Positions 27,082 through 46,568 of a stretch of 64,000 nt of DNA are shown one piece after another. The stretch comes from Trypanosoma brucei. Its lineage: Eukaryota. Both the position numbers and the translations under genes were made by a program. How positions within the stretch are numbered: the stretch's first letter is position 1; every line of letters starts with the position of its first letter. The stretch is taken from the NCBI GenBank assembly GCA_000002445.1, contig CH464491.1, positions 544,001-608,000 of the forward strand, written 5' to 3'. The notes beneath the pieces were generated by a model. It saw only the letters and a program-made list of their open reading frames with translations, ran no database searches and was not told the origin of the DNA.

Positions 27082-28056
27082 ATGCCATCCGTTTCCCAGG
27101 AGAAACGTGACTATGAGGATCGCCTCAACGGCTGCCTCACGAAGTACAGCCGTGTGCTCTTCTGCCTGATGGACAATGTTCGCTCGCAGCAGGTGCACGG
27201 TGTACGCCGTGATCTCCGCGGTAAGGGTGAGCTGGTGATGGGAAAGAAGACGTTGCAGAAGAAGATCGTGGAGAAGCGCGCTGAGGGCAACAAGGCCACA
27301 GATGCTGATAAGCTGTTCCACCAGGTTTGCACCGATAAGCAGCTTCTGTGTGGCAACACATCGATGATATTCACGAACAGCGAAGTGTCTGATATCACCA
27401 GCGTGTTGGACAGCCACCGTGTTCAGGCGCCTGCGCGTGTTGGTGCCATTGCCCCATGTGATGTTATTGTGCCCGCCGGTAACACGGGTATGGAGCCGAA
27501 GGCAACGGCGTTCTTCCAAGCGTTGAACATCGCGACGAAGATTTCCAAGGGTACTGTGGAGATTGTGAGCGACAAGAAGGTACTGAGCACTGGTGACAAG
27601 GTGGATAACTCCACGGCGACGCTGCTGCAGAAGCTCGACATCTCACCTTTCTATTACCAGGTCGAGGTGCAATCCGTGTGGGACCGCGGTGTGCTGTTTA
27701 CCCGTGAAGATCTCTCCGTCACCGATGCGGTTGTGGAGAAGTACCTCCTCGAAGGAATCAGCAACATCAGCGCTATGTCACTGGGTGCTGGTATCCCAAC
27801 TGCCGCTACACTGCCGCACATGATTGTCGACGCCTTCAAGACTCTTCTCGGCGCCTCCGTTGCCACGAATTACGAGTTTGAGGAATACGACGGAAAGAAC
27901 CTGCGCACAGCCGCCTTGGAGGGTAAACTCGGTGGTGGCGAAGCTGCTGCCCCCGCCGCTGCCGCTGCTGCCGCCGCCCCCGCCGCCGCTCCCGCTGCCG
28001 CCGCAGCTGAGGAGGAGGAGGATGATGATGACTTTGGCATGGGTGCTCTCTTCTAG
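27082..28056 (+). CDS. RPLP0: 60S acidic ribosomal protein P0 (copy 1)
   Basis: 324 aa with the uL10/P0 N-terminal domain, an Ala/Pro-rich hinge and the conserved P-protein C-terminus [15 protein letters not shown]. Stop codon is TAG. Confidence 0.95.
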
Positions 28057-28313: not shown

Positions 28314-29288
28314 ATGCCATCCGTTTCCCAGGAGAAACGTGACTATGAGGATCGCCTCAACGGCTGCCTCACGAAGTACAGCCGTGTGCTCTTCTGCCTG
28401 ATGGACAATGTTCGCTCGCAGCAGGTGCACGGTGTACGCCGTGATCTCCGCGGTAAGGGTGAGCTGGTGATGGGAAAGAAGACGTTGCAGAAGAAGATCG
28501 TGGAGAAGCGCGCTGAGGGCAACAAGGCCACAGATGCTGATAAGCTGTTCCACCAGGTTTGCACCGATAAGCAGCTTCTGTGTGGCAACACATCGATGAT
28601 ATTCACGAACAGCGAAGTGTCTGATATCACCAGCGTGTTGGACAGCCACCGTGTTCAGGCGCCTGCGCGTGTTGGTGCCATTGCCCCATGTGATGTTATT
28701 GTGCCCGCCGGTAACACGGGTATGGAGCCGAAGGCAACGGCGTTCTTCCAAGCGTTGAACATCGCGACGAAGATTTCCAAGGGTACTGTGGAGATTGTGA
28801 GCGACAAGAAGGTACTGAGCACTGGTGACAAGGTGGATAACTCCACGGCGACGCTGCTGCAGAAGCTCGACATCTCACCTTTCTATTACCAGGTCGAGGT
28901 GCAATCCGTGTGGGACCGCGGTGTGCTGTTTACCCGTGAAGATCTCTCCGTCACCGATGCGGTTGTGGAGAAGTACCTCCTCGAAGGAATCAGCAACATC
29001 AGCGCTATGTCACTGGGTGCTGGTATCCCAACTGCCGCTACACTGCCGCACATGATTGTCGACGCCTTCAAGACTCTTCTCGGCGCCTCCGTTGCCACGA
29101 ATTACGAGTTTGAGGAATACGACGGAAAGAACCTGCGCACAGCCGCCTTGGAGGGTAAACTCGGTGGTGGCGAAGCTGCTGCCCCCGCCGCTGCCGCTGC
29201 TGCCGCCGCCCCCGCCGCCGCTCCCGCTGCCGCCGCAGCTGAGGAGGAGGAGGATGATGATGACTTTGGCATGGGTGCTCTCTTCTAA
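28314..29288 (+). CDS. RPLP0: 60S acidic ribosomal protein P0 (copy 2, identical CDS)
   Basis: Its translation is identical to copy 1. All overlapping spurious ORFs in the other frames are also identical, which implies nucleotide identity. Stop codon is TAA. Confidence 0.95.
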
Positions 29289-33522: not shown

Positions 33523-33542
33523 ATATATATATATATATATAT
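33523..33542. repeat. (AT)n microsatellite
   Basis: atatatatatatatatatat. Confidence 0.9.
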
Positions 33543-34475
33543 GTTGTGTATGAGGGTGCGTCAAGATGTTGCGGTATTAATTGACGGTACCATCTGAATG
33601 TGTTTTGGGCTGCTTCTAAATTTGTCCTTGTTTACGGCTTCTCTGCCATCTCCCCCCCTCAAGGCGGTTCCCCCTTTCCGTATTTCTCATGTGTTGCTCG
33701 TCCCTTTCCTTCCCTGGAGCTATTGGATACCGGTGGAAGGGTTGTTGTGGGGTTGCAGGTGTGTTTCCGTTGGTCATGCAAGGGAAGGGTGAGGAAAAGA
33801 GAGGATAGGAGAGCGGTGGAAGTGAATTGCAATGGTGCCACGTTTGCACTTTTTTGCGCTCTCTTAACATTTTTTTTGTTGATCCTTAGTTCGTTTCTTT
33901 TTTTTTTTTTCGTGCCTACGTCGTGTTAGTGATCGCCACCGCACACCAACTTAGTGTCCCAAATGATACTTCATGGAGGCGGGACGAGTGCCTCGTTCCC
34001 TCCCGTTGCATTTGTGTGATTTTTTCTTCGTGGTAGTTCGCGGGTGTTGAAAACATGTGGAGTGGGGGTGTATATGGAGAAGCTGGTGGGTAACGCAACT
34101 GTTCTGGTGAAAAATTGGTAAAAAGAAGCAAAAGAAGGTTCTGTTTGGGCAATGGCTGTAGAATGTCAAGGATAAGTAAAACGTGCCGTGTGCTTGTGTG
34201 CATTGTAAAGGTTATCATTAAGTACCGTAAATGAGATGTTGGATGAGGGGATACTTCCTTGGCTATGTAGGGCTTCTCATTTTTCTCATTGTTCATTTTT
34301 ATTGCATCAATGACATGTGAATTTTCAACTTTTTTGTGCGCCTTTTGACAACTATAAGGAAGGGAGGGGTGAAGCTACACACAGGTCGCACACAGCGACG
34401 CGTGCCGACTGCTGGCGCGTTCCGGAGGAACGCAGCGAAGAATCGAATAGGGAAAAAGAAGGATCAACTTTTTAC

Positions 34476-36380
34476 ATGTTTCAAATTGATGTCACCGACG
34501 TTTATTCCGCTCAAACGGAAACAGAGATAGCAAGGCTGTTTGCTTTAGCTGCAAACAGCGATTTCCCCTCCGAGACTCCCACCATCGAAGTGCGTTTACT
34601 GCTGCAAACAGAGAAGGATGGTTCTCAACCGACAGGTGATGTATGGACCCGGCAGGAGCGTGACACGCTGCTACTGTGTTTGGATCGCTCCGTCTCGCGT
34701 GTTTACCCTCCGCTCGACCCACTACAGTACACGCAACCACCACCGGAACTGGAGGTGCGTAACGGGAAACGGGTGGCGCGTATATACGTTACACCAACAG
34801 TCCGTTTGTTTTCCTTTCATTCAACTCCACACTGTGTTGAGGGACGCATGGGTACAGCAAATGGGACTCCTCCTAGTTTACTCACTCCCTTCGCTGAAGG
34901 TGAAGGTGTTAAAGCGAGCGGGGAATTCGAAGACTTTGCCGTTTCTCGGAGTCGGTGGAGGGTTGCTGCGTGGCTGACTGCCCGATTGTTCAATGAGAGT
35001 AGTTGGGTTTCTACCTGTCCCTGTGGTGGACTAAACAATGGGGATGGCACTGTCGCCGTACCTGCTGAGAGGTGTAGTGACGTTATTGATGCTGCAGAGT
35101 GTGACGGGCAAAAGCGGTTGCTTCATGTGGATGTGGCAGGGATGGAGTTCGTTGGGCTCATCACAGCTGTTACGTCACGGTATGCATACGTGGCTGTACC
35201 ACATGAAGAGGAAGGCCAACTGGCTACTAAGTGGGTCCTTGTCAGCCGTGTTAGCGTACCGCCCGCGCTGGAACGCATTGTGGGAAGAGAAACTGTGAAG
35301 AGGCCGAGGGAGGACAGTGAAAGGTCCCGGAGAGAAGAATTTGTGTATGAAAGGGAAGTTATATCTCATGACAACACCCCTTTCAGAGTGCTGCGTGTGG
35401 AGGAGCGTTTGTTGGTCACGCTGCGTGCGCACAAAGTGTATTGCACAAAGCAAAGGCCGGTGTTAGGTCTTCCTAGGGCGGTTTCCGTCTTATTTGAAGA
35501 CGTGGCTGTGGTGAAGAAGGTGGCTGACAGTCTCACTGATGGCGGTGACAGTACCAAAGTTATTCACAAATCATGTTGTAATTCATTTGCGGACGTCCTT
35601 GAAATTGTGAGGGGAAGCTGCAAGCGTTTTCTGCGGGGTTATACCAAATATAAGTTAAACACCAACGGACCTGCGGTCGAGCGCTTATTTAGCGCCCTGA
35701 CCGATACCGTCTCGGTGCAGTCTGTCTGTCACGGTGCGGGGACCCGGCGGCGGCGGCAGCGGCCACCCGTCACTGTCTCGTCTCCACGGGACATCTCTTC
35801 GCTTTATGAGGGAACTTGTGTTGAGTTCAAGGCGAAGGCGAACAAATGGGAGGCCAACTCTATTGAGGATTTCGTTGAGACGGATGTCTTTGGTGATGCG
35901 AGCGCAAGTGCCGGCGGTAATTACCGAAGCACTTCGAGGAAAACGGGCTGCATGAATATGGAGCGTATTCGGCACACCATTGCTGCCATGGCGAGCACGC
36001 TGGGCGGTGTCCTCCTTGTGGGTGTAAGCGACGACGGTAAGGTGTTGGGCCACAGTCCCGATGCGCTGAAGGAACTTCGACTGACTGGCTTCTGCCCAGC
36101 AATGCCGAAGGGCACGGTACAATGTACAACGATGCGAGCTGTGTCGGAAGATGCCCCAGTGACGTTACCAAAGGAATGGTGGAAGAATAAGACTCAGAAT
36201 ATTGGGCAGCGGGTTAATCAGCAGACCAATCTTGTGGTAACAGTGATCACGGTTTCCAGAGGACCAGCCCCAGTCTATACCGTGGCGCGCCACTCTGTGC
36301 CATACATCCGCGGGTTTGCCAGCACCCTCCCACTACATGTCATTTCCGTTACGCGACGTATAACTCCTCTACTGCCATAA
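34476..36380 (+). CDS. Hypothetical protein with C-terminal Schlafen/AlbA_2-like domain
   Basis: CVEFKAKANKW ... IRHTIAAMASTLGGVLLVGVSDDGKVLGHSP matches the AlbA_2 (PF04326, divergent AAA/Schlafen) consensus E..EFK ... iaAfaNt.GG.lliGV.DdG.v.G. Track start 34317 is GTG; the first ATG is at 34476. Confidence 0.55.
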   Translation: MFQIDVTDVYSAQTETEIARLFALAANSDFPSETPTIEVRLLLQTEKDGSQPTGDVWTRQERDTLLLCLDRSVSRVYPPLDPLQYTQPPPELEVRNGKRVARIYVTPTVRLFSFHSTPHCVEGRMGTANGTPPSLLTPFAEGEGVKASGEFEDFAVSRSRWRVAAWLTARLFNESSWVSTCPCGGLNNGDGTVAVPAERCSDVIDAAECDGQKRLLHVDVAGMEFVGLITAVTSRYAYVAVPHEEEGQLATKWVLVSRVSVPPALERIVGRETVKRPREDSERSRREEFVYEREVISHDNTPFRVLRVEERLLVTLRAHKVYCTKQRPVLGLPRAVSVLFEDVAVVKKVADSLTDGGDSTKVIHKSCCNSFADVLEIVRGSCKRFLRGYTKYKLNTNGPAVERLFSALTDTVSVQSVCHGAGTRRRRQRPPVTVSSPRDISSLYEGTCVEFKAKANKWEANSIEDFVETDVFGDASASAGGNYRSTSRKTGCMNMERIRHTIAAMASTLGGVLLVGVSDDGKVLGHSPDALKELRLTGFCPAMPKGTVQCTTMRAVSEDAPVTLPKEWWKNKTQNIGQRVNQQTNLVVTVITVSRGPAPVYTVARHSVPYIRGFASTLPLHVISVTRRITPLLP

Positions 36381-38429: not shown

Positions 38430-40796
38430 ATGACTCGAGAAGAGGAGGTATTGGATCTGGGAAAACGATGGTATGAGCGGCCACTCCCTCTACGGGTATG
38501 CAGCCTGAAGGAAGTGGCCAACGACACCACAACGAAGGAGGAGATGGATGCCATGTTCAGTGAAGCGCGGGATATACTCAACCAAGCTACCAACAGGGGT
38601 CACTCAGACAAGGGGCGGTGGTACAACACACAGTTTATCTCACGCGGTACAACTTCGGACAAAATCGCTTCTGCTGCCGTAAAGTTGAGTGACACGGACT
38701 TTATGTTCTTTCTTGAAGGTTTTAATCTTCTGTTTGACACCGCTCGTACGGATACCCACCACTACGAGGCCGCACTGAAAGCACTTGCAGTCATTTGGAC
38801 GAAGCTAATGCCCCGGCGGCCACTGAAGCGGTTTTTTTCCCAGTTCTTTGCCACGCTGCCAGCGAACCCCGCGGATAGGAAAGTTGTTCTTGTATATTGG
38901 TATCTCGAGGATTACCTGAAGCGCACATATGCGCAGTTTCTTTCGCTCGCAGAGGCGATGCTGAAGGATCGTCTGCAGCAGCGTCGCGAAGCATGGTTAG
39001 ATGTGGTTGGAAAGCTTATATGTAACGTTGCCGAGAGCCGCCACGTAGCGATGGCATTAATGGTGGATAAGTTGGGAGATCCGGCGGCACGTGTTGCGCA
39101 CAATGCCTACCATCACCTGCTTGCCCTTCTGCGTGACTCTTCCATTCATCAGGGGGTACTCTTTGTCGAACTTGAGAAGGTAATTTTTATGAAGAACTGC
39201 CCCAAATCCACAATGAAATATGCAACCAACGTTATGAATCAGTTCGTTTACAATAAGGATGAACGGAAACTTGCCTTAAAAGCTATCCAAACATATCTTT
39301 CCATTTTCCGTCAGCTGGCAATCAGTGGTTCTGTGGATCTCTCCGTGACGACAGCTACCATCGTTGGCCTTCGGCGTGCCTTTCCTTATGCTGGCACAGA
39401 TGTTGCCTCGCTAGAGGAGCACCTTAACGCACTATTTGTCATCGCTAACACCGGGAACTTTACACAGCGTGTCACTACGATGTCCTTACTGCAGCTTGTC
39501 GCACTTGGGAAAAGCGCTACGGAGGAGTTTCGTAACCGTTGGTACAGGGCTCTGTACAAGCTACTGCTCATTTCACCAAAGCAGGTATCTCACTCTGCTC
39601 ACATAACGGGTTTCTTCTCGATGCTGCATAAAGCAGTGCGCTTGGACACTAATGACGACAGAATAGCAGCATTCATTCATCGCCTTCTCCAGCGGGCATT
39701 GTTTTTCCATGAATCAATGATATGCGCCATTCTTTTGTTGGTTGGTGACGTGCTGCAAGCTCACCCTCGTCTCCGCTCAGTAATCTTGGGATCCCGCAGA
39801 CCGCCGGTCGTACCAGCAGAGGAGCGTTATGACGTGAAACATCGCGAACCGCAGTATGCGCGGGCAAAGAACGAGTGCTTGTACACACTGGGTGTCCTGG
39901 CGCGCCATTCGCATCCCTCCGTAGTACAGTTGGCTGTGATGTTACTTTTCGGTGAGGAAATTATTTTTGACAGCCACCCTCTAGATGAGCTCACACTAAT
40001 AAACTTCCTGCAAATGTTTGTGGATGCGAAGGCCCACACCCAGCATGGGATAGACAGCGACGTAGCCGCGGCCGAAGCCGTAGGTAAGGCGGGGTCCTCA
40101 GTGTTCCGTCGCGCAACTCACCGGGCGAACCTCCCCAGCGCATCGGATCCTTTTTTTATCAACTCAAGCGTCCAACAAGTTGATGTGTCGGCGTTATTTC
40201 TTCACCGCTACGCCGTGCAACGTCAACGCTTCATTGATGGCCTTTCCCGGGTGCGGTCCACGTGGGGTGACGCGAGTGGCGAGGCGGACGTGGCACTCCG
40301 CGTGTCGGATGTGGACGCATCACTTTTTGGACCTTCTGGCGTGCTTGGGGATCCAGCAGTATCCAAGAAAAAGAATAAGCGTGCAAAGAAGAAGAAGGAA
40401 CGGTTGAAAGAGAAACTTAAGGAAGGAGCTGTGCTCGACGAGTGTGTGGAGGCCATTGGTAGCGAAGAGGTTGAAGGCGGCGAGGATAATTTTTTCGATA
40501 TGGAAGGTAGTGAAGGCGACTTGGAGTGGGGAAGCGGGGATGAGGGAGTAATGATGGACGATGATGAGGATGGGGATGACGGTAATGAAAGGGACGATGA
40601 TGGCGTGGGTTTGGCGCTTAGTCGTCGGGAAAATGCTGATGTTGATGATGGAGAGGACCTTGCAGAGATGCTGGAGGCTCACCGTAACGTTGCGTCTAAG
40701 AAGCGGAGGCGTGAAGAGGCTTGGTTGGAGCGAGTGACGTCGGCAGCAGGTACTAAAGGACCAAACCGAAGGTCCTTTGTGAGCAGAAGGCGGTAA
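38430..40796 (+). CDS. CBF/Mak21-family nucleolar protein (Noc1/CEBPZ-like)
   Basis: CBF-domain signature RWYRALYKLLL...FFSMLHKAVRLDTNDDRIAAFIHRLLQRALFFHESMICAILLLVGDVLQAHP, an acidic D/E-rich C-terminal tail and a KKKNKRAKKKKERLKEKLK NLS-like block. Confidence 0.65.
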   Translation: MTREEEVLDLGKRWYERPLPLRVCSLKEVANDTTTKEEMDAMFSEARDILNQATNRGHSDKGRWYNTQFISRGTTSDKIASAAVKLSDTDFMFFLEGFNLLFDTARTDTHHYEAALKALAVIWTKLMPRRPLKRFFSQFFATLPANPADRKVVLVYWYLEDYLKRTYAQFLSLAEAMLKDRLQQRREAWLDVVGKLICNVAESRHVAMALMVDKLGDPAARVAHNAYHHLLALLRDSSIHQGVLFVELEKVIFMKNCPKSTMKYATNVMNQFVYNKDERKLALKAIQTYLSIFRQLAISGSVDLSVTTATIVGLRRAFPYAGTDVASLEEHLNALFVIANTGNFTQRVTTMSLLQLVALGKSATEEFRNRWYRALYKLLLISPKQVSHSAHITGFFSMLHKAVRLDTNDDRIAAFIHRLLQRALFFHESMICAILLLVGDVLQAHPRLRSVILGSRRPPVVPAEERYDVKHREPQYARAKNECLYTLGVLARHSHPSVVQLAVMLLFGEEIIFDSHPLDELTLINFLQMFVDAKAHTQHGIDSDVAAAEAVGKAGSSVFRRATHRANLPSASDPFFINSSVQQVDVSALFLHRYAVQRQRFIDGLSRVRSTWGDASGEADVALRVSDVDASLFGPSGVLGDPAVSKKKNKRAKKKKERLKEKLKEGAVLDECVEAIGSEEVEGGEDNFFDMEGSEGDLEWGSGDEGVMMDDDEDGDDGNERDDDGVGLALSRRENADVDDGEDLAEMLEAHRNVASKKRRREEAWLERVTSAAGTKGPNRRSFVSRRR

Positions 40797-43226: not shown

Positions 43227-46200
43227 ATGAGCGACTCCATGGGTGAGGGACAGGACCTTGTTCCTATGACCCTTCCGGTGCCGGAGGTTATGCACGTCTC
43301 TGAACTTGATGTTACGGGACCGCTGCAACCTGGTGATGACTGCGCACAGAAGTCGCTCTCGGGTAATCTTCCGGATAAATGCATGTCTGTTTCATTTGCC
43401 AAAAGCTTGAGCGGCGTAGACCTCAGCATTTTGACACGTTCGGCGGGAAATGCGTCTCACACCTCTATCCGAAGTGGCAGTCGTGCGAGGGGGGGCAATA
43501 CAGAATCTTACGAACTCGCTGCTGTCATGGTTAGATCGTACCCACTCATGACCGTTGAGGGAACGGCGTTTTTAAACACAACACGGCCTCCAAGCTCGCT
43601 GGGGGGAACAGAGCCATCCGTGAGTCTTCGGCAAGATGCAGGCAGTCCCTCTGGGGTTGCTACCGACGATGAACCTCTGGGGGAGAGTTGCGTAAACTTG
43701 GCTGAAAGTGGTGAGCACAGTCGGACGTCCGCCAATGTGATGGCAATCGCCACTAGTCTCAAGCGTGCTTGCATGTGGCAGGTCATAATTACAAACTTTT
43801 TAGCGCACCGCGCGTGGATGGAAGCATTTCGCCGAAACAAACTGAGATCAGTTCTTGAGGTGCACCTTCTTCCCGTGATTCTCCGGAGACGTGGTAGAAT
43901 GAATTTGTCAGGACGGTTTACGCGGAGGGTCTGTGTTCAAAAGCCTGAGCTAGTGAGTAGAGATTCGACTGATTTATTGCAAGGCACGTACCTCTACGAC
44001 ACCGTGCCCATCCTAAAGACCTTGAGAAACGTAAAGTTCTGTGAAGCACTTACGGAGACTGTTTTGAAATACCGCTACAGCTGCGGCCAAGCAATAGCAA
44101 GCAGCGGGAATCCGGAGCAGAACGCTTTATATATTCTCGTCTCCGGCAAGTGCGATGCCATCACCCCAGCATCGGAGACAGGTGGAAAGGTGCGACGCCG
44201 ACGTCTCCAACCAGGTGAAACATTCGGTGGGCTATTTGGTGGTAAAGCGATATTCACAGATGTATATAGAGCCATATCTACCTGTGTGGTGTATGTTATT
44301 ACTAGAGAAAAGTTTGAAGAGTTGTTTTCTCAGTACGCTGACAGCAGTATGAAGGAAACATTCCTTGGTGCGTTACGCGACCACGAGATGGTGCGCCTAA
44401 AAAGGTTACACCCTCTACCCCAGTGCATAGCGCGCGTTCCCATATACCGTAAAAGTGAGCAGCTTGCAGGACAGGTCAACGAATACATTAAGGGGTTCAC
44501 ACCATTGGTGCTTTTACAAGGAGATGTGCTCTTTGAGCAGGGAGATCCTCCCGGCGATGTGTTTTGCCTCATTGAGGGGTATGTCCTGCGCGAGCAACTT
44601 GGTCCAGACATGAAGTACGAAAGCGGCACTCGGCAGGTTCTGGCACCGAACGAGCCGAACAATAACTTCGCACTGAGCACGCGGTTCCTGCTATTGGGAG
44701 AGGAGCCGCACATATTGCCGGGTCCGCTGCGCTACCGCTGCACTGTTGCCAGTCGTGCTGCTCTCTTTTTCAAGATCAATAGCGACAGCTTTGTGAATAT
44801 GCTACTGGATGACGCTAGTCTACTCATTAGGCTTCGGCAAAAGTACAAGGAACAACTGCAGCAGTGGATGCGAATTGCTCCCGAGGCACTCAGGCAAGTT
44901 CCCATGTTGGGGGAGATGCCACGACAAAATCTTAATACCATCATTCACGCTGCGGAACCGCGTGTGCTCGAGCGGTACGTTGCTGTGTGTGAGCCAGCTC
45001 GCGTCATCCGGGAGATTTATGTGTTAACGAAGGGCGATGTACGGGACCCGCGTCAATTTGATCATGTGCCAACGCAACCCCCCTCATTACCTCCCACGGA
45101 AAGCGAGTCTGTAGAGGAAGAGGCCGCGGGGAAGCAGCGAAAGGAAAAGGTCACCAAACGTGTGCCCTCCCCACGTGAAAGAAACTCTAAGGCTCAGAAA
45201 ACGGCCCAGCAACCTGTATCGCCGCTGAAGGAAGGCCGTCCGCGGAAAGGAAACAGGTCTGTTGCATCACTCGTTTGCAAATACACCGACGATAATGCAG
45301 TTCAATGGAGTTTTGAAGAGAATACCGAACTGCTGAAGGCTACAATTTATCCCGATGAGCGGCAGGAAATAACACCGCCACTTCCATTAAACCCGGAGAG
45401 GAATATTATCTGCACCATCGGTGGCGGATGGGAAGGCCTTCTACTGGAGAAGTGGCCTACCGGTTGGGAGACGACGACAACGGTGGAACTCTGGGCCATA
45501 CCGACACTGGCCATAAGGACGGAGTTCAACACTTTCCCCAAGGCGGCTCAAAATTCTATTCTTCGTTGCATTGGTGAAGTGCAAATGCGGGAGCTCGATC
45601 TTCCCACCCCGCCGAAGGTGAAGCTTCCACCAATGAGCATCTACACCCCAATCGAAAAGCGGCTAACGAAACCCGGTTTGAATGTTGACAGGGCCCCCCT
45701 TCGTTCACCGCGTAATGTTGGAGGAAGTGGAGCCTCGCACGACCGCTCCACCGCCGGAACCACAAGCAAAATTGGGCGGCAGCAGGCTGATGCTGCAAAT
45801 TCACAATCCAGTTTTACGACGAGGTCGTCGTCATTTTTCTCCGTTGACATCAGCACCGTGAAGCCTCCGCCTTCTGCGCTGACATCCAACAGGGATCCCA
45901 AAACCATGTCACCTAAACCGGCTGCAGTAGACACAAAGGTCCCCACGGTTCCGAAGACCCGCAAACAATTGGCACAGGTAACCGCGGCTGAGTCGGCGCC
46001 TGTTGAACCTCGCAAATCCAAGGCAGTGCCGGCCTCGTTGCTGTTGTTCCAACGGTTTTCCAAGAAAGTGACTGAGGAACCCCCAAAGATCACACCGGAA
46101 CTGCGAGCCATGTATGCTGGAGAGAAACCACAAAAAGGAATTGTACGTGAGTCGCCTCTCATAGAAGCTGACAAGCGACGAAGTCATAGTTGTCTGCCGA

Positions 46201-46568
46201 CGCTGCCCATAACAGCTTCTGCATGGCCGGTGTTGGCTGGAAGGAGGAAGCGGTGGTTTCCGATGGTACCCACGTTTGCACCCCTTCCGGGAACCCTGGA
46301 CAACGCGAACAACAAGGTGGATCCGCCTCATTTGGTCCCTAACACCTCCCACATGGTTATGCGTGAGAAGGGTTATAGGGATGTGCTGCAGTCACAAGTT
46401 GTTTATTTTACTTCGCTAGCAAATAGCAAAGCCTGTGAGGACCCAACGTACCTCTCGGTCTCCCCATGTACAACTGCAAGGTCCCGTTCCTCTCGTCATG
46501 GTGGGTCCACAGCAGCTCACATTGGTGCGGTACTGCCAACGCCTGGCCGGCATGCATACAGCTCTTAG
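43227..46568 (+). CDS. Large protein with tandem cyclic-nucleotide-binding-like (cNMP) domains and S/P-rich C-terminal half
   Basis: Two or three cNMP-binding-like modules: LYILVSGKCDAI...LQPGETFGGLFGGKAIFTDVYRAISTCVVYVITREKFEEL; VLLQGDVLFEQGDPPGDVFCLIEGYVLRE...LLLGEE...RYRCTVASRAALFFKINSDSF. No kinase or other catalytic domain was detected. Confidence 0.6.
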   Translation: MSDSMGEGQDLVPMTLPVPEVMHVSELDVTGPLQPGDDCAQKSLSGNLPDKCMSVSFAKSLSGVDLSILTRSAGNASHTSIRSGSRARGGNTESYELAAVMVRSYPLMTVEGTAFLNTTRPPSSLGGTEPSVSLRQDAGSPSGVATDDEPLGESCVNLAESGEHSRTSANVMAIATSLKRACMWQVIITNFLAHRAWMEAFRRNKLRSVLEVHLLPVILRRRGRMNLSGRFTRRVCVQKPELVSRDSTDLLQGTYLYDTVPILKTLRNVKFCEALTETVLKYRYSCGQAIASSGNPEQNALYILVSGKCDAITPASETGGKVRRRRLQPGETFGGLFGGKAIFTDVYRAISTCVVYVITREKFEELFSQYADSSMKETFLGALRDHEMVRLKRLHPLPQCIARVPIYRKSEQLAGQVNEYIKGFTPLVLLQGDVLFEQGDPPGDVFCLIEGYVLREQLGPDMKYESGTRQVLAPNEPNNNFALSTRFLLLGEEPHILPGPLRYRCTVASRAALFFKINSDSFVNMLLDDASLLIRLRQKYKEQLQQWMRIAPEALRQVPMLGEMPRQNLNTIIHAAEPRVLERYVAVCEPARVIREIYVLTKGDVRDPRQFDHVPTQPPSLPPTESESVEEEAAGKQRKEKVTKRVPSPRERNSKAQKTAQQPVSPLKEGRPRKGNRSVASLVCKYTDDNAVQWSFEENTELLKATIYPDERQEITPPLPLNPERNIICTIGGGWEGLLLEKWPTGWETTTTVELWAIPTLAIRTEFNTFPKAAQNSILRCIGEVQMRELDLPTPPKVKLPPMSIYTPIEKRLTKPGLNVDRAPLRSPRNVGGSGASHDRSTAGTTSKIGRQQADAANSQSSFTTRSSSFFSVDISTVKPPPSALTSNRDPKTMSPKPAAVDTKVPTVPKTRKQLAQVTAAESAPVEPRKSKAVPASLLLFQRFSKKVTEEPPKITPELRAMYAGEKPQKGIVRESPLIEADKRRSHSCLPTLPITASAWPVLAGRRKRWFPMVPTFAPLPGTLDNANNKVDPPHLVPNTSHMVMREKGYRDVLQSQVVYFTSLANSKACEDPTYLSVSPCTTARSRSSRHGGSTAAHIGAVLPTPGRHAYSS

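What the first reader, a model, noticed from the sequence alone, without database searches (positions are those of the whole stretch)
34476..36380. Schlafen/AlbA_2-like nucleic-acid-binding domain in an otherwise unannotatable 634 aa protein
The C-terminal segment CVEFKAKANKW...IRHTIAAMASTLGGVLLVGVSDDGKVLGHSP reproduces the two hallmark blocks of the AlbA_2 / Schlafen core domain. These are E..EFK and a small-residue-rich aiaAfaNt.GG.lliGV.DDG.v.G strand-helix. In metazoa this fold belongs to Schlafen RNases and restriction factors. In prokaryotes it is a frequent sensor/effector module in defence islands. Its presence in a kinetoplastid protein with a long unique N-terminal region and an extended insert between the two blocks is unusual. 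It could mark an RNA-processing or nucleic-acid-sensing factor.
Basis: partly seen in the sequence, partly recalled or inferred. Interest (0 to 1): 0.65.

Follow-up and report, generated by a model that had tools for sequence, protein, structure and literature searches.

The report
Nucleolar Schlafen-like putative RNase of trypanosomes
The gene is Trypanosoma brucei Tb927.11.2100, an unstudied nuclear protein found across kinetoplastid parasites, whose C-terminal domain really is Schlafen/AlbA_2-like and keeps the three acidic residues that mammalian Schlafens use to cut tRNA and rRNA, so it is a candidate RNA-cutting enzyme.

Summary
ORF 34476-36380 (+) encodes a 634-aa protein. Its C-terminus matches Pfam PF04326 (SLFN_AlbA_2) above the curated cut-off. 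A family profile hits only Schlafens at the top of the PDB (SLFN13, E = 3e-10). A confident AlphaFold model (pLDDT 79.5) matches Schlafens, DIP2311 and SAMD9 by fold.

E445, E450 and D519 align with the catalytic E205/E210/D248 of rat SLFN13. They are conserved in 36-37 of 37 family members.

The gene is Tb927.11.2100, already labelled "Divergent AAA / Schlafen AlbA-2 domain" in public databases. So the domain call is not new. I found no paper that studies it.

The family spans Kinetoplastea: Trypanosoma, Leishmania, Phytomonas, Leptomonas, Angomonas and a prokinetoplastid.

The "unannotatable" N-terminus is conserved and predicted to fold. It contains an alpha/beta domain and a DNA-ligase-type OB-like barrel carrying a KRPR nuclear-import motif. 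The "insert" is a disordered loop that varies between lineages.

Published proteomics shows strong nuclear enrichment. TrypTag places the protein in the "fibrillarin-like" pattern.

Best reading: a nucleolar, metal-dependent Schlafen-type endoribonuclease. The substrate is unknown. It is not a full Schlafen-core member, because the zinc finger is absent and a second lobe is unproven.

The parts
34476..36380 (+). Complete CDS of the 634-aa protein (stop included). [quoted passage not shown]
   Evidence: ORF and translation. No in-frame ATG lies upstream, and T-rich tracts precede the start. The gene ID follows from the neighbours: choline kinase Tb927.11.2090 upstream and CBF/Mak21 Tb927.11.2120 two genes downstream. 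The product name matches that of the 98%-identical T. b. equiperdum protein.
34476..34850 (+). N-terminal alpha/beta domain (residues 1-125) with beta-alpha-beta-alpha-beta-beta order. Family-wide motifs are 'cAaaN' (N27) and 'RD..l.c.DR...RvyPP.DP' (D63, D70, P78 and D81 invariant).
34917..35009 (+). Long connecting helix (residues 148-178) containing the conserved 'R.A.W...R..NE..W' motif.
   Evidence: AF2 secondary structure, pLDDT 84-94. Consensus.
35088..35525 (+). Central OB-like beta-barrel (residues 205-350) with order b1-b2-b3-helix-b4-b5. G222 and D342 are near-invariant.
35298..35309 (+). KRPR motif (residues 275-278) in a disordered loop of the OB-like domain. Probable monopartite nuclear localisation signal.
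   Evidence: KRxR is kept in about 27-30 of 34 family members. The loop is low-confidence. KRPR/KRxR is the motif most enriched in the T. brucei nuclear proteome (PMC5519215). NLS function has not been tested.
35586..35702 (+). Helical hairpin (residues 371-409) linking the OB-like domain to the nuclease-like domain.
   Evidence: AF2 model, helices 371-393 and 398-409.
35784..36371 (+). AlbA_2 / Schlafen C-lobe-like domain (residues 437-632).
35808..35831 (+). Block 1, EGTCVEFK. E445 and E450 are the predicted catalytic glutamates; K452 is invariant.
   Evidence: These align to E206/E211 of human SLFN14 and to E205/E210 of rat SLFN13. The E211A mutant entry 9jr9 shows Ala at exactly this column. 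The SLFN13 residues are experimentally essential (PMC5862951). E445, E450 and K452 are each 37/37 in the family.
35847..35951 (+). Variable, disordered insert (residues 458-492) between the two blocks.
   Evidence: pLDDT < 50. The stretch between the blocks is 41 aa here, 43 in T. congolense, 51 in T. vivax, 23-24 in the T. cruzi group and 11-25 in most other members.
35961..36050 (+). Block 2, ERIRHTIAAMASTLGGVLLVGVSDDGKVLG, a helix followed by a strand. D519 is the predicted third catalytic residue. R497 and R499 are conserved.
   Evidence: D519 aligns with SLFN14 D249 and rat SLFN13 D248. D519 is 36/37, G510/G511/G516/G521 are 37/37, R497 is 36/37 and R499 is 35/37.
36177..36185 (+). 'WWK' signature (residues 568-570), specific to the kinetoplastid family.
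   Evidence: W568 and W569 are 35/35; K570 is K/R in 34/36. Role unknown.

Best explanation
Tb927.11.2100 is a nuclear protein that concentrates in the fibrillarin-like (nucleolus/Cajal-body-like) compartment. I propose it acts as a metal-dependent endoribonuclease of the Schlafen/AlbA_2 type.

Proposed mechanism, with the status of each step:
1. The protein is made (shown by mass spectrometry). It is imported into the nucleus, probably through the conserved KRPR motif in a disordered loop (import shown; the signal is inferred).
2. It accumulates where box C/D snoRNP proteins sit (shown by TrypTag tagging).
3. The central ligase-type OB-like barrel, the N-terminal alpha/beta domain and conserved basic residues (R497, R499, R535, K570, R612, R628) hold an RNA substrate (inferred).
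4. E445, E450 and D519 coordinate a divalent cation and cleave the phosphodiester backbone, as E205/E210/D248 do in SLFN13 (inferred from homology and conservation).

The substrate is not known. Given the localisation, pre-rRNA spacers, snoRNA precursors or nuclear tRNA are the likeliest candidates.
For: - Domain identity: Pfam hit above the curated cut-off, present in 37/38 relatives. PDB profile hits to Schlafens down to E = 3e-10 cover both motifs. Fold matches come from a confident model with pLDDT 79.5 and pTM 0.83.
- Catalytic triad: residue-by-residue alignment to SLFN14 E206/E211/D249 and SLFN13 E205/E210/D248. Mutating those residues abolishes SLFN13 RNase activity (PMC5862951). The triad is kept in 36-37 of 37 family members whose overall identity falls to 17-25%.
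- Expression and localisation: 21 peptides, nuclear enrichment score 4.19 (log2), p = 2.7e-6 (PMC5519215 supplement). It is one of 25 proteins with the 'fibrillarin-like (potential Cajal bodies)' pattern (PMC9981465).
- Extra nucleic-acid-binding module: OB-like barrel with ligase and capping-enzyme fold matches.
- Long-term conservation from a prokinetoplastid to Leishmania and Trypanosoma argues for a core cellular function.
Against: - No biochemical or genetic data on this protein exist in the library searched.
- An intact triad does not guarantee RNase activity. To my recollection (not checked here), activity reports for some Schlafens that keep the triad, such as SLFN5, are inconsistent.
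- Many AlbA_2 domains are annotated only as DNA-binding.
- The CCCH zinc finger and bridging domain that shape the Schlafen RNA-binding valley are not present.
- A second lobe could not be shown.
- The best OB-domain fold matches are DNA enzymes, which would fit a DNA substrate equally well.
Confidence: 0.5

Rival explanations
1. It is a non-catalytic nucleic-acid-binding or scaffold protein. The AlbA_2 domain and OB-like barrel bind RNA or DNA in the nucleolus, for example as an assembly factor or regulator. The acidic residues serve structure or binding rather than catalysis.
For: PF04326 has historically been annotated as a putative DNA-binding domain. The structural neighbours DIP2311 and the RecG-related N-domain 2kyy have no assigned nuclease activity in their entry titles. 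The SAMD9 AlbA_2 domain was first solved as a DNA-binding domain (7ksp). The Schlafen zinc finger and bridging domain are missing.
Against: Three acidic residues in exactly the catalytic positions are kept in 36-37 of 37 sequences across the whole of Kinetoplastea. That is hard to explain by binding alone. The SAMD9 domain has since been deposited as a tRNase (9o0d).
Confidence: 0.22
2. It acts on DNA rather than RNA, as a nuclear ssDNA-binding factor or DNase in replication or repair at the rDNA. The ligase-type OB-like domain would engage DNA. This resembles the reported binding of SLFN11 to DNA at stressed replication forks (my recollection, not checked here).
Against: The fibrillarin-like pattern is that of snoRNP/RNA-processing proteins, not of replication or telomere factors, which TrypTag lists as separate classes. 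The protein was not found in the held supplement text of the RNA-DNA-hybrid interactome. No ligase nucleotidyl-transferase motifs or Pfam hits were seen. OB folds of this type also bind RNA in capping enzymes.
Confidence: 0.13
3. It is a stress- or defence-type tRNA nuclease like SLFN11, SLFN13 or SAMD9. It would cut nuclear tRNAs, for example to produce the tRNA halves reported in starved trypanosomes, rather than taking part in constitutive rRNA or snoRNA processing.
For: The closest characterised relatives are tRNA- and rRNA-targeting RNases (PMC5862951; SAMD9 tRNase entry 9o0d). From my own knowledge, not checked here, no nuclease responsible for trypanosomatid tRNA halves has been identified.
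Against: The protein is detected with 21 peptides in unstressed procyclic cells and sits in a nucleolar-type compartment. It is a single conserved gene across all kinetoplastids rather than a rapidly evolving, lineage-specific defence gene. There are no hits to defence-system models.
Confidence: 0.12
4. The similarity is a chance motif match and the region is not an AlbA_2/Schlafen-type domain.
For: The single-sequence Pfam score is only about 3 bits above the threshold and covers only block 2 and the region downstream. A single-sequence PDB search finds nothing.
Confidence: 0.01

Closest known systems
Mammalian Schlafen core (N-terminal) domain, C-lobe: SLFN13 (5yd0), SLFN11 (7zel), SLFN12 (7lrd), SLFN14 (9nyy), SLFN5 (7q3z)
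   Same: It has the same AlbA_2-type fold. It has the same two sequence blocks, and the E-x4-E...D catalytic triad sits in the same alignment columns. These Schlafens are the best sequence-profile matches in the PDB.
   Different: There is no CCCH zinc finger, no SWAVDL linker and no helicase domain. Between the N-terminal domain and the nuclease-like domain lie a long helix, an OB-like barrel and a helical hairpin, rather than the bipartite bridging domain. A pseudo-dimeric second lobe is unproven. The 'WWK', 'GFCPAM' and 'RG.AST' motifs are kinetoplastid-specific. It is a constitutive nucleolar-type protein rather than an interferon-induced factor.
Prokaryotic and giant-virus AlbA_2 ('Divergent AAA') domain proteins, e.g. 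Corynebacterium DIP2311 (3lmm) and Catovirus A0A1V0SAW2
   Different: The bacterial proteins pair the domain with other C-terminal modules; none of the Pfam scans here found any such module in this family. Here the domain is C-terminal, behind an alpha/beta domain and an OB-like barrel. There are no matches to defence-system models.
SAMD9/SAMD9L AlbA_2 domain (7ksp DNA-binding domain; 9o0d tRNase domain)
   Different: The sequence relationship is much more distant than to the Schlafens. The surrounding architecture is entirely different.
OB domain of ATP-dependent DNA ligases and mRNA capping enzymes
   Different: There is no nucleotidyl-transferase domain and no ligase Pfam hit. Identity is only 6-12%. 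The aligned residue ranges were not available, so the domain assignment is inferred.

Membership tests
Pfam PF04326 SLFN_AlbA_2 domain family | Score to the family HMM at or above the curated gathering threshold | tested here: met
   28.1 bits against a cut-off of 25.3, E = 3.3e-6. 37/38 homologues also match, best E = 5e-11.
Pfam PF04326 SLFN_AlbA_2 domain family | AlbA_2 fold (EFK strand, long helix, GG-hydrophobic strand, D-G turn, further beta-sheet) | tested here: met
Schlafen-type RNase (SLFN11/12/13/14) | Catalytic acidic triad E-x4-E ... D in the C-lobe (rat SLFN13 E205/E210/D248) | tested here: met
   E445, E450 and D519 fall in the same HMM columns as SLFN14 E206/E211/D249 and SLFN13 E205/E210/D248 (PMC5862951). 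They are conserved 37/37, 37/37 and 36/37.
Schlafen-type RNase (SLFN11/12/13/14) | Demonstrated metal-dependent endoribonuclease activity on tRNA or rRNA | not testable with these tools
   This needs recombinant protein assays. No publication on this protein was found.
Schlafen core domain (as defined by the SLFN13 structure) | Pseudo-dimeric U-shaped core: an N-lobe and a C-lobe of the same fold | tested here: inconclusive
   The N-terminal domain (1-125) has a beta-alpha-beta-alpha-beta-beta order and a 'cAaaN' motif reminiscent of Schlafen 'CALLNSGGG'. However, hhalign of N against C gives 0.7% probability, and the N-domain profile finds nothing in the PDB. Domain-wise structure comparison was not possible.
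Schlafen core domain (as defined by the SLFN13 structure) | Bipartite bridging domain joining the two lobes | tested here: not met
   Between the two domains the model has a long helix, an OB-like barrel and a helical hairpin, whose best fold matches are DNA ligases. This differs from the bridging domain described in PMC5862951.
Schlafen core domain (as defined by the SLFN13 structure) | CCCH-type zinc finger essential for folding | tested here: not met
   No set of four Cys/His positions is conserved across the family in residues 430-634. The best are C540 (25/37), H526 (20/37), H500 (20/37) and C448 (11/37).
Schlafen groups II/III | SWAVDL linker domain and C-terminal SF1 helicase domain | tested here: not met
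   The protein ends at residue 634, right after the AlbA_2 domain. There are no helicase or other Pfam hits.
ATP-dependent DNA ligase / capping enzyme superfamily | Nucleotidyl-transferase domain with the KxDG motif I lysine | tested here: not met
   No ligase or capping-enzyme Pfam family is reported even at E <= 10. No KxDG motif was seen in the consensus of the 38-sequence family alignment. Only an OB-like barrel resembles these enzymes.
Prokaryotic anti-phage defence systems containing AlbA_2/Schlafen modules | Match to a known defence-system protein model | tested here: not met
   PADLOC scan of the window protein and three divergent relatives gave no relevant hit.

The most novel reading that the evidence does not exclude
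Tb927.11.2100 and its orthologues are the missing kinetoplastid-specific endonuclease for a kinetoplastid-specific nucleolar RNA-processing step. The most attractive candidates are the extra spacer cleavages that split the large-subunit rRNA into six pieces, or the release of snoRNAs from polycistronic precursors. On this reading a Schlafen-type RNase, known in mammals as an innate-immunity or stress effector, has been built into a ligase-OB scaffold and used as a housekeeping ribosome-biogenesis enzyme.
Probability: 0.15. Interest if true: 0.8.

Novelty: new variant of a known kind. Interest (0 to 1): 0.5.

Why it matters
Schlafen-type RNases are known mainly as vertebrate antiviral and stress effectors, and as modules of prokaryotic defence islands. 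Here a protein with the same catalytic residues is a conserved single-copy gene of all kinetoplastids and sits in the fibrillarin compartment of the nucleus. That points to a housekeeping RNA-processing role for this nuclease type.

[quoted passage not shown] A parasite-specific nucleolar nuclease would therefore be a testable candidate for these cleavages. If it is essential, it is also a possible drug target without a close human counterpart.

The practical value of this work is that it turns a bare 'Divergent AAA domain' label into a specific hypothesis that point mutants can test.

Tried and rejected
- A single-sequence PDB search gave only noise, with MBF1 and flagellin at E > 1.
- The first AF2 run used only 9 Trypanosoma sequences and was unusable (pLDDT 40). 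It became confident only with the 38-sequence kinetoplastid alignment.
- The word-indexed homology search found only Trypanosoma orthologues, even with a profile. The exhaustive representative search was needed to reach Leishmania and deeper lineages.
- The idea that the N-terminal domain is an internal duplicate of the AlbA_2 domain (a Schlafen N-lobe) got no sequence support. hhalign gave 0.7% probability, although the 12 aligned columns were in the expected register. The N-domain profile found nothing in the PDB. I left this open rather than claiming it.
- No defence-system match was found (PADLOC).
- Literature searches for Schlafen + Trypanosoma, Schlafen + TriTrypDB, 'Divergent AAA domain' + brucei, and the gene ID returned nothing about this protein in main texts. 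The 'AlbA_2' search only retrieved the unrelated ALBA2 RNA-binding protein.
- The held supplement text of the cell-cycle RIT-seq paper and of the RNA-DNA hybrid interactome does not contain the gene ID. The TrypTag and nuclear-proteome listings show that some supplementary files are truncated when stored, so this absence may not be informative. No RNAi phenotype was obtained.
- The afdb50 fold library was unavailable.
- The antisense ORFs at 35685-36122 and 35860-36171 were disregarded. They lie inside a conserved, expressed + strand CDS, and every ORF of 200 aa or more in this stretch of the window is on the + strand.
Full report
**1. The observation**

The window is a trypanosome polycistronic unit. 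All but one of the 26 ORFs of 200 aa or more are on the + strand. The ORF at 34476-36380 (+) begins at the first in-frame ATG, downstream of T-rich tracts, and encodes 634 aa. They are EGTCVEFK at residues 445-452 and ERIRHTIAAMASTLGGVLLVGVSDDGKVLG at residues 496-525.

The Pfam scan gives one family, PF04326 SLFN_AlbA_2. It scores 28.1 bits against a curated cut-off of 25.3, with E = 3.3e-6, over residues 491-612. So the single sequence only just passes, and only through block 2 and what follows it. The first block lies 41 residues upstream of the matched stretch.

**2. Identity of the gene and of the family**

The protein is 98% identical to a T. brucei equiperdum protein named 'Divergent AAA domain containing protein'. 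It is 43-53% identical to orthologues in T. congolense, T. cruzi, T. vivax, T. rangeli, T. conorhini and T. theileri, several of which UniProt labels 'Schlafen AlbA-2 domain-containing protein'.

The gene ID follows from the neighbours:
- Upstream are two near-identical ribosomal P0 genes, a hypothetical gene and a choline/ethanolamine kinase. Downstream are an Snf7-family gene, a CBF/Mak21 gene and Rpn3.
- A published paper gives choline kinase as Tb927.11.2090.

This fixes the gene as Tb927.11.2100. No paper in the library mentions this ID in its main text. Searches combining Schlafen or 'Divergent AAA domain' with trypanosome terms found nothing relevant. The domain label is therefore already public, but the protein is uncharacterised.

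An exhaustive profile search of 1.84 billion representative proteins returned 51 hits at E <= 1e-3. Named members come from Leishmania (braziliensis, panamensis and others), Leptomonas pyrrhocoris, Phytomonas, Angomonas deanei and the prokinetoplastid Apiculatamorpha spiralis. Many unnamed environmental contigs share the same motifs. Only about two of the hits look like unrelated AlbA_2 proteins (P0050, P0055). The family is thus pan-kinetoplastid and well separated in sequence from other AlbA_2 proteins.

**3. Strength of the domain assignment**

- Of 38 aligned family members, 37 hit PF04326, best E = 5e-11. The exception is a fragment without the C-terminus.
- A profile of 25 diverse C-terminal domains searched against all PDB sequences finds rat SLFN13 (3.4e-10), SLFN14 (3.9e-9), SLFN12 (9.3e-9), SLFN11 (7.8e-8), SLFN5 (1.2e-7), DIP2311 (2e-6) and, weakly, SAMD9 (0.026). 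Apart from two chance-level hits (mL49, E = 0.2; an HNH endonuclease, E = 2.8) nothing else matches. The alignments now span both blocks.

**4. Catalytic residues**

In those alignments:
- E445 pairs with SLFN14 E206 and with rat SLFN13 E205 (SEQRES index 218).
- E450 pairs with SLFN14 E211 and with SLFN13 E210. The deposited E211A mutant chain has Ala in exactly this column.
- D519 pairs with SLFN14 D249 and with SLFN13 D248.

The SLFN13 structure paper shows that E205, E210 and D248 form the active site and that E205A and E210A are completely inactive (PMC5862951).

Across the 38-sequence alignment, overall identity to the window protein falls to 17-25%. Even so, E445, E450 and K452 are 37/37 and D519 is 36/37.

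**5. Structure of the whole protein**

With only the nine Trypanosoma sequences, AlphaFold gave a poor model (pLDDT 40). With the 38-sequence alignment the model is confident (pLDDT 79.5, pTM 0.83). It shows:
1. An N-terminal beta-alpha-beta-alpha-beta-beta domain (residues 1-125).
2. A long helix (148-178).
3. A barrel with OB-fold strand order (215-348). It carries a disordered loop that contains KRPR (275-278).
4. A helical hairpin (371-409).
5. The AlbA_2 domain (437-632), with a disordered insert at 458-492.

Fold searches gave the following:
- Foldseek against the PDB returns Schlafens, DIP2311 and SAMD9 as the top 25 hits. Weak OB-fold proteins follow.
- Against viral models, the best hits are a Catovirus 'Divergent AAA domain' protein and baculovirus and nudivirus DNA ligases. 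These include a 195-aa ligase fragment matched with TMt 0.51.

The tools do not report aligned ranges. I infer from topology and hit lengths that the ligase and capping-enzyme matches come from the central barrel, making it a ligase-type OB domain. No nucleotidyl-transferase signature or Pfam hit accompanies it.

The N-terminal 430 residues are therefore not a unique unannotatable region. They are conserved: D63, D70, P78, D81 and G222 are invariant across the family. They are also predicted to be folded.

**6. The insert**

The stretch between the two blocks is 41 aa in T. brucei, 43 in T. congolense and 51 in T. vivax. It is 23-24 aa in the T. cruzi group and 11-25 aa in most other members. 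It is predicted disordered. It is a lineage-specific loop expansion, not a defining feature of the family.

**7. Is it a Schlafen?**

The SLFN13 paper defines the core as a pseudo-dimer of an N-lobe and a C-lobe. These are joined by a bipartite bridging domain and stabilised by a CCCH zinc finger. Testing each feature here:
- **C-lobe-like domain and triad:** met.
- **Zinc finger:** not met. No four Cys/His positions are conserved in the C-terminal domain.
- **Bridging domain:** not met. It is replaced by a helix, an OB-like barrel and a helical hairpin.
- **Second lobe:** unproven. The N-terminal domain has a suggestive 'cAaaN' motif and a compatible secondary-structure order. However, profile-profile comparison with the C-domain is not significant, and its profile finds nothing in the PDB.
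- **Linker and helicase domains:** absent.

I therefore file the protein as a member of the AlbA_2 (PF04326) family, with a Schlafen-type active site in a new, kinetoplastid-specific architecture. It is not a member of the Schlafen family proper.

**8. Where it acts**

In the procyclic nuclear proteome the protein was identified with 21 peptides. Its nuclear enrichment score is 4.19 on a log2 scale that runs from -9.2 to +7.7, with p = 2.7e-6. The same paper found KRPR/KRxR to be the motif most enriched in nuclear proteins. The KRxR motif here is conserved in most family members and lies in a disordered loop, which makes it a plausible nuclear localisation signal.

In the genome-wide tagging project, Tb927.11.2100 is one of 25 proteins assigned the 'fibrillarin-like' nuclear pattern. 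The authors equate this pattern with potential Cajal bodies.

**9. Mechanism and rivals**

The best-supported reading is a nuclear, nucleolus-associated, metal-dependent endoribonuclease. It would use E445, E450 and D519 for catalysis, with the OB-like barrel, the N-terminal domain and conserved arginines and lysines as RNA-binding surfaces.
- **Shown:** the domain, the triad conservation, expression and localisation.
- **Inferred:** catalysis, the nuclear localisation signal and RNA as the substrate.

Rivals:
- A non-catalytic binder.
- A DNA-directed role, suggested by the ligase-type OB-like domain.
- A stress or defence tRNase like its mammalian relatives.

The most novel reading that the evidence permits is that this is the nuclease for a kinetoplastid-specific nucleolar cleavage. 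Examples are the extra spacer cuts that fragment the LSU rRNA, whose mechanisms are described as still to be investigated (PMC9841430). I give that about 15%.

**10. Verdict**

The bare domain call is already in public annotation. What this work adds:
- the conserved catalytic triad;
- the pan-kinetoplastid distribution;
- the folded N-terminal and OB-like modules;
- the link to published nuclear and fibrillarin-like localisation.

Together these make a specific, testable hypothesis for an uncharacterised, parasite-specific nuclear protein. Interest is moderate.

Noticed in passing
window 27082-28056 and 28314-29288 (+): Two tandem copies of the 60S acidic ribosomal protein P0 gene (Pfam Ribosomal_L10, RL10P_insert, Ribosomal_60s). 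They are 974/975 nt identical, with identical protein sequences. This points to recent duplication or ongoing gene conversion.
   Followed up: partly
window 38430-40796 (+): The CBF/Mak21-family gene (Tb927.11.2120) two genes downstream is also in the nuclear proteome, with a nuclear enrichment score of 2.45. So two nuclear-enriched proteins lie within 4 kb of each other. In a trypanosome polycistron this is probably coincidence.
   Followed up: no
window 33525-33545: A (TA)n microsatellite lies in the intergenic region between the choline kinase gene and the target. Long T-tracts follow at about 33860-33910 and 34280-34345, as expected for trans-splicing and polyadenylation signals.
   Followed up: no
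window 34476-34850 (protein residues 63, 70, 81): Three aspartates in the N-terminal domain (D63, D70, D81) are invariant in all 35-36 family members that cover the region. This matches the conservation of the catalytic triad. Whether they face the active-site cleft or form a second site could not be checked without model coordinates.
   Followed up: partly
related proteins P0023, P0024, P0027 (1266-1388 aa, unnamed Logan contigs): One sub-lineage of the family has doubled in length through long Ser/Pro-rich low-complexity insertions between the conserved domains. All core motifs are kept.
   Followed up: no
related protein P0050 (472 aa, unnamed contig): This non-kinetoplastid hit carries a Schlafen-like 'ACALLNSGGGVLEI' N-lobe motif followed by two 'GG..lLGV.dDGtvLG' repeats. 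It is a three-module Schlafen-like protein of unknown origin.
   Followed up: no
window 35685-36122 and 35860-36171 (- strand): Two antisense ORFs of 145 and 103 aa lie inside the AlbA_2-coding region. They have non-ATG starts under the bacterial table and sit opposite a conserved, expressed CDS. They are most likely spurious.
   Followed up: no
window 43227-46568 (+): A 1113-aa ORF whose only Pfam hit is a cyclic-nucleotide-binding domain (residues 283-370). The rest of the protein is unannotated by Pfam.
   Followed up: no
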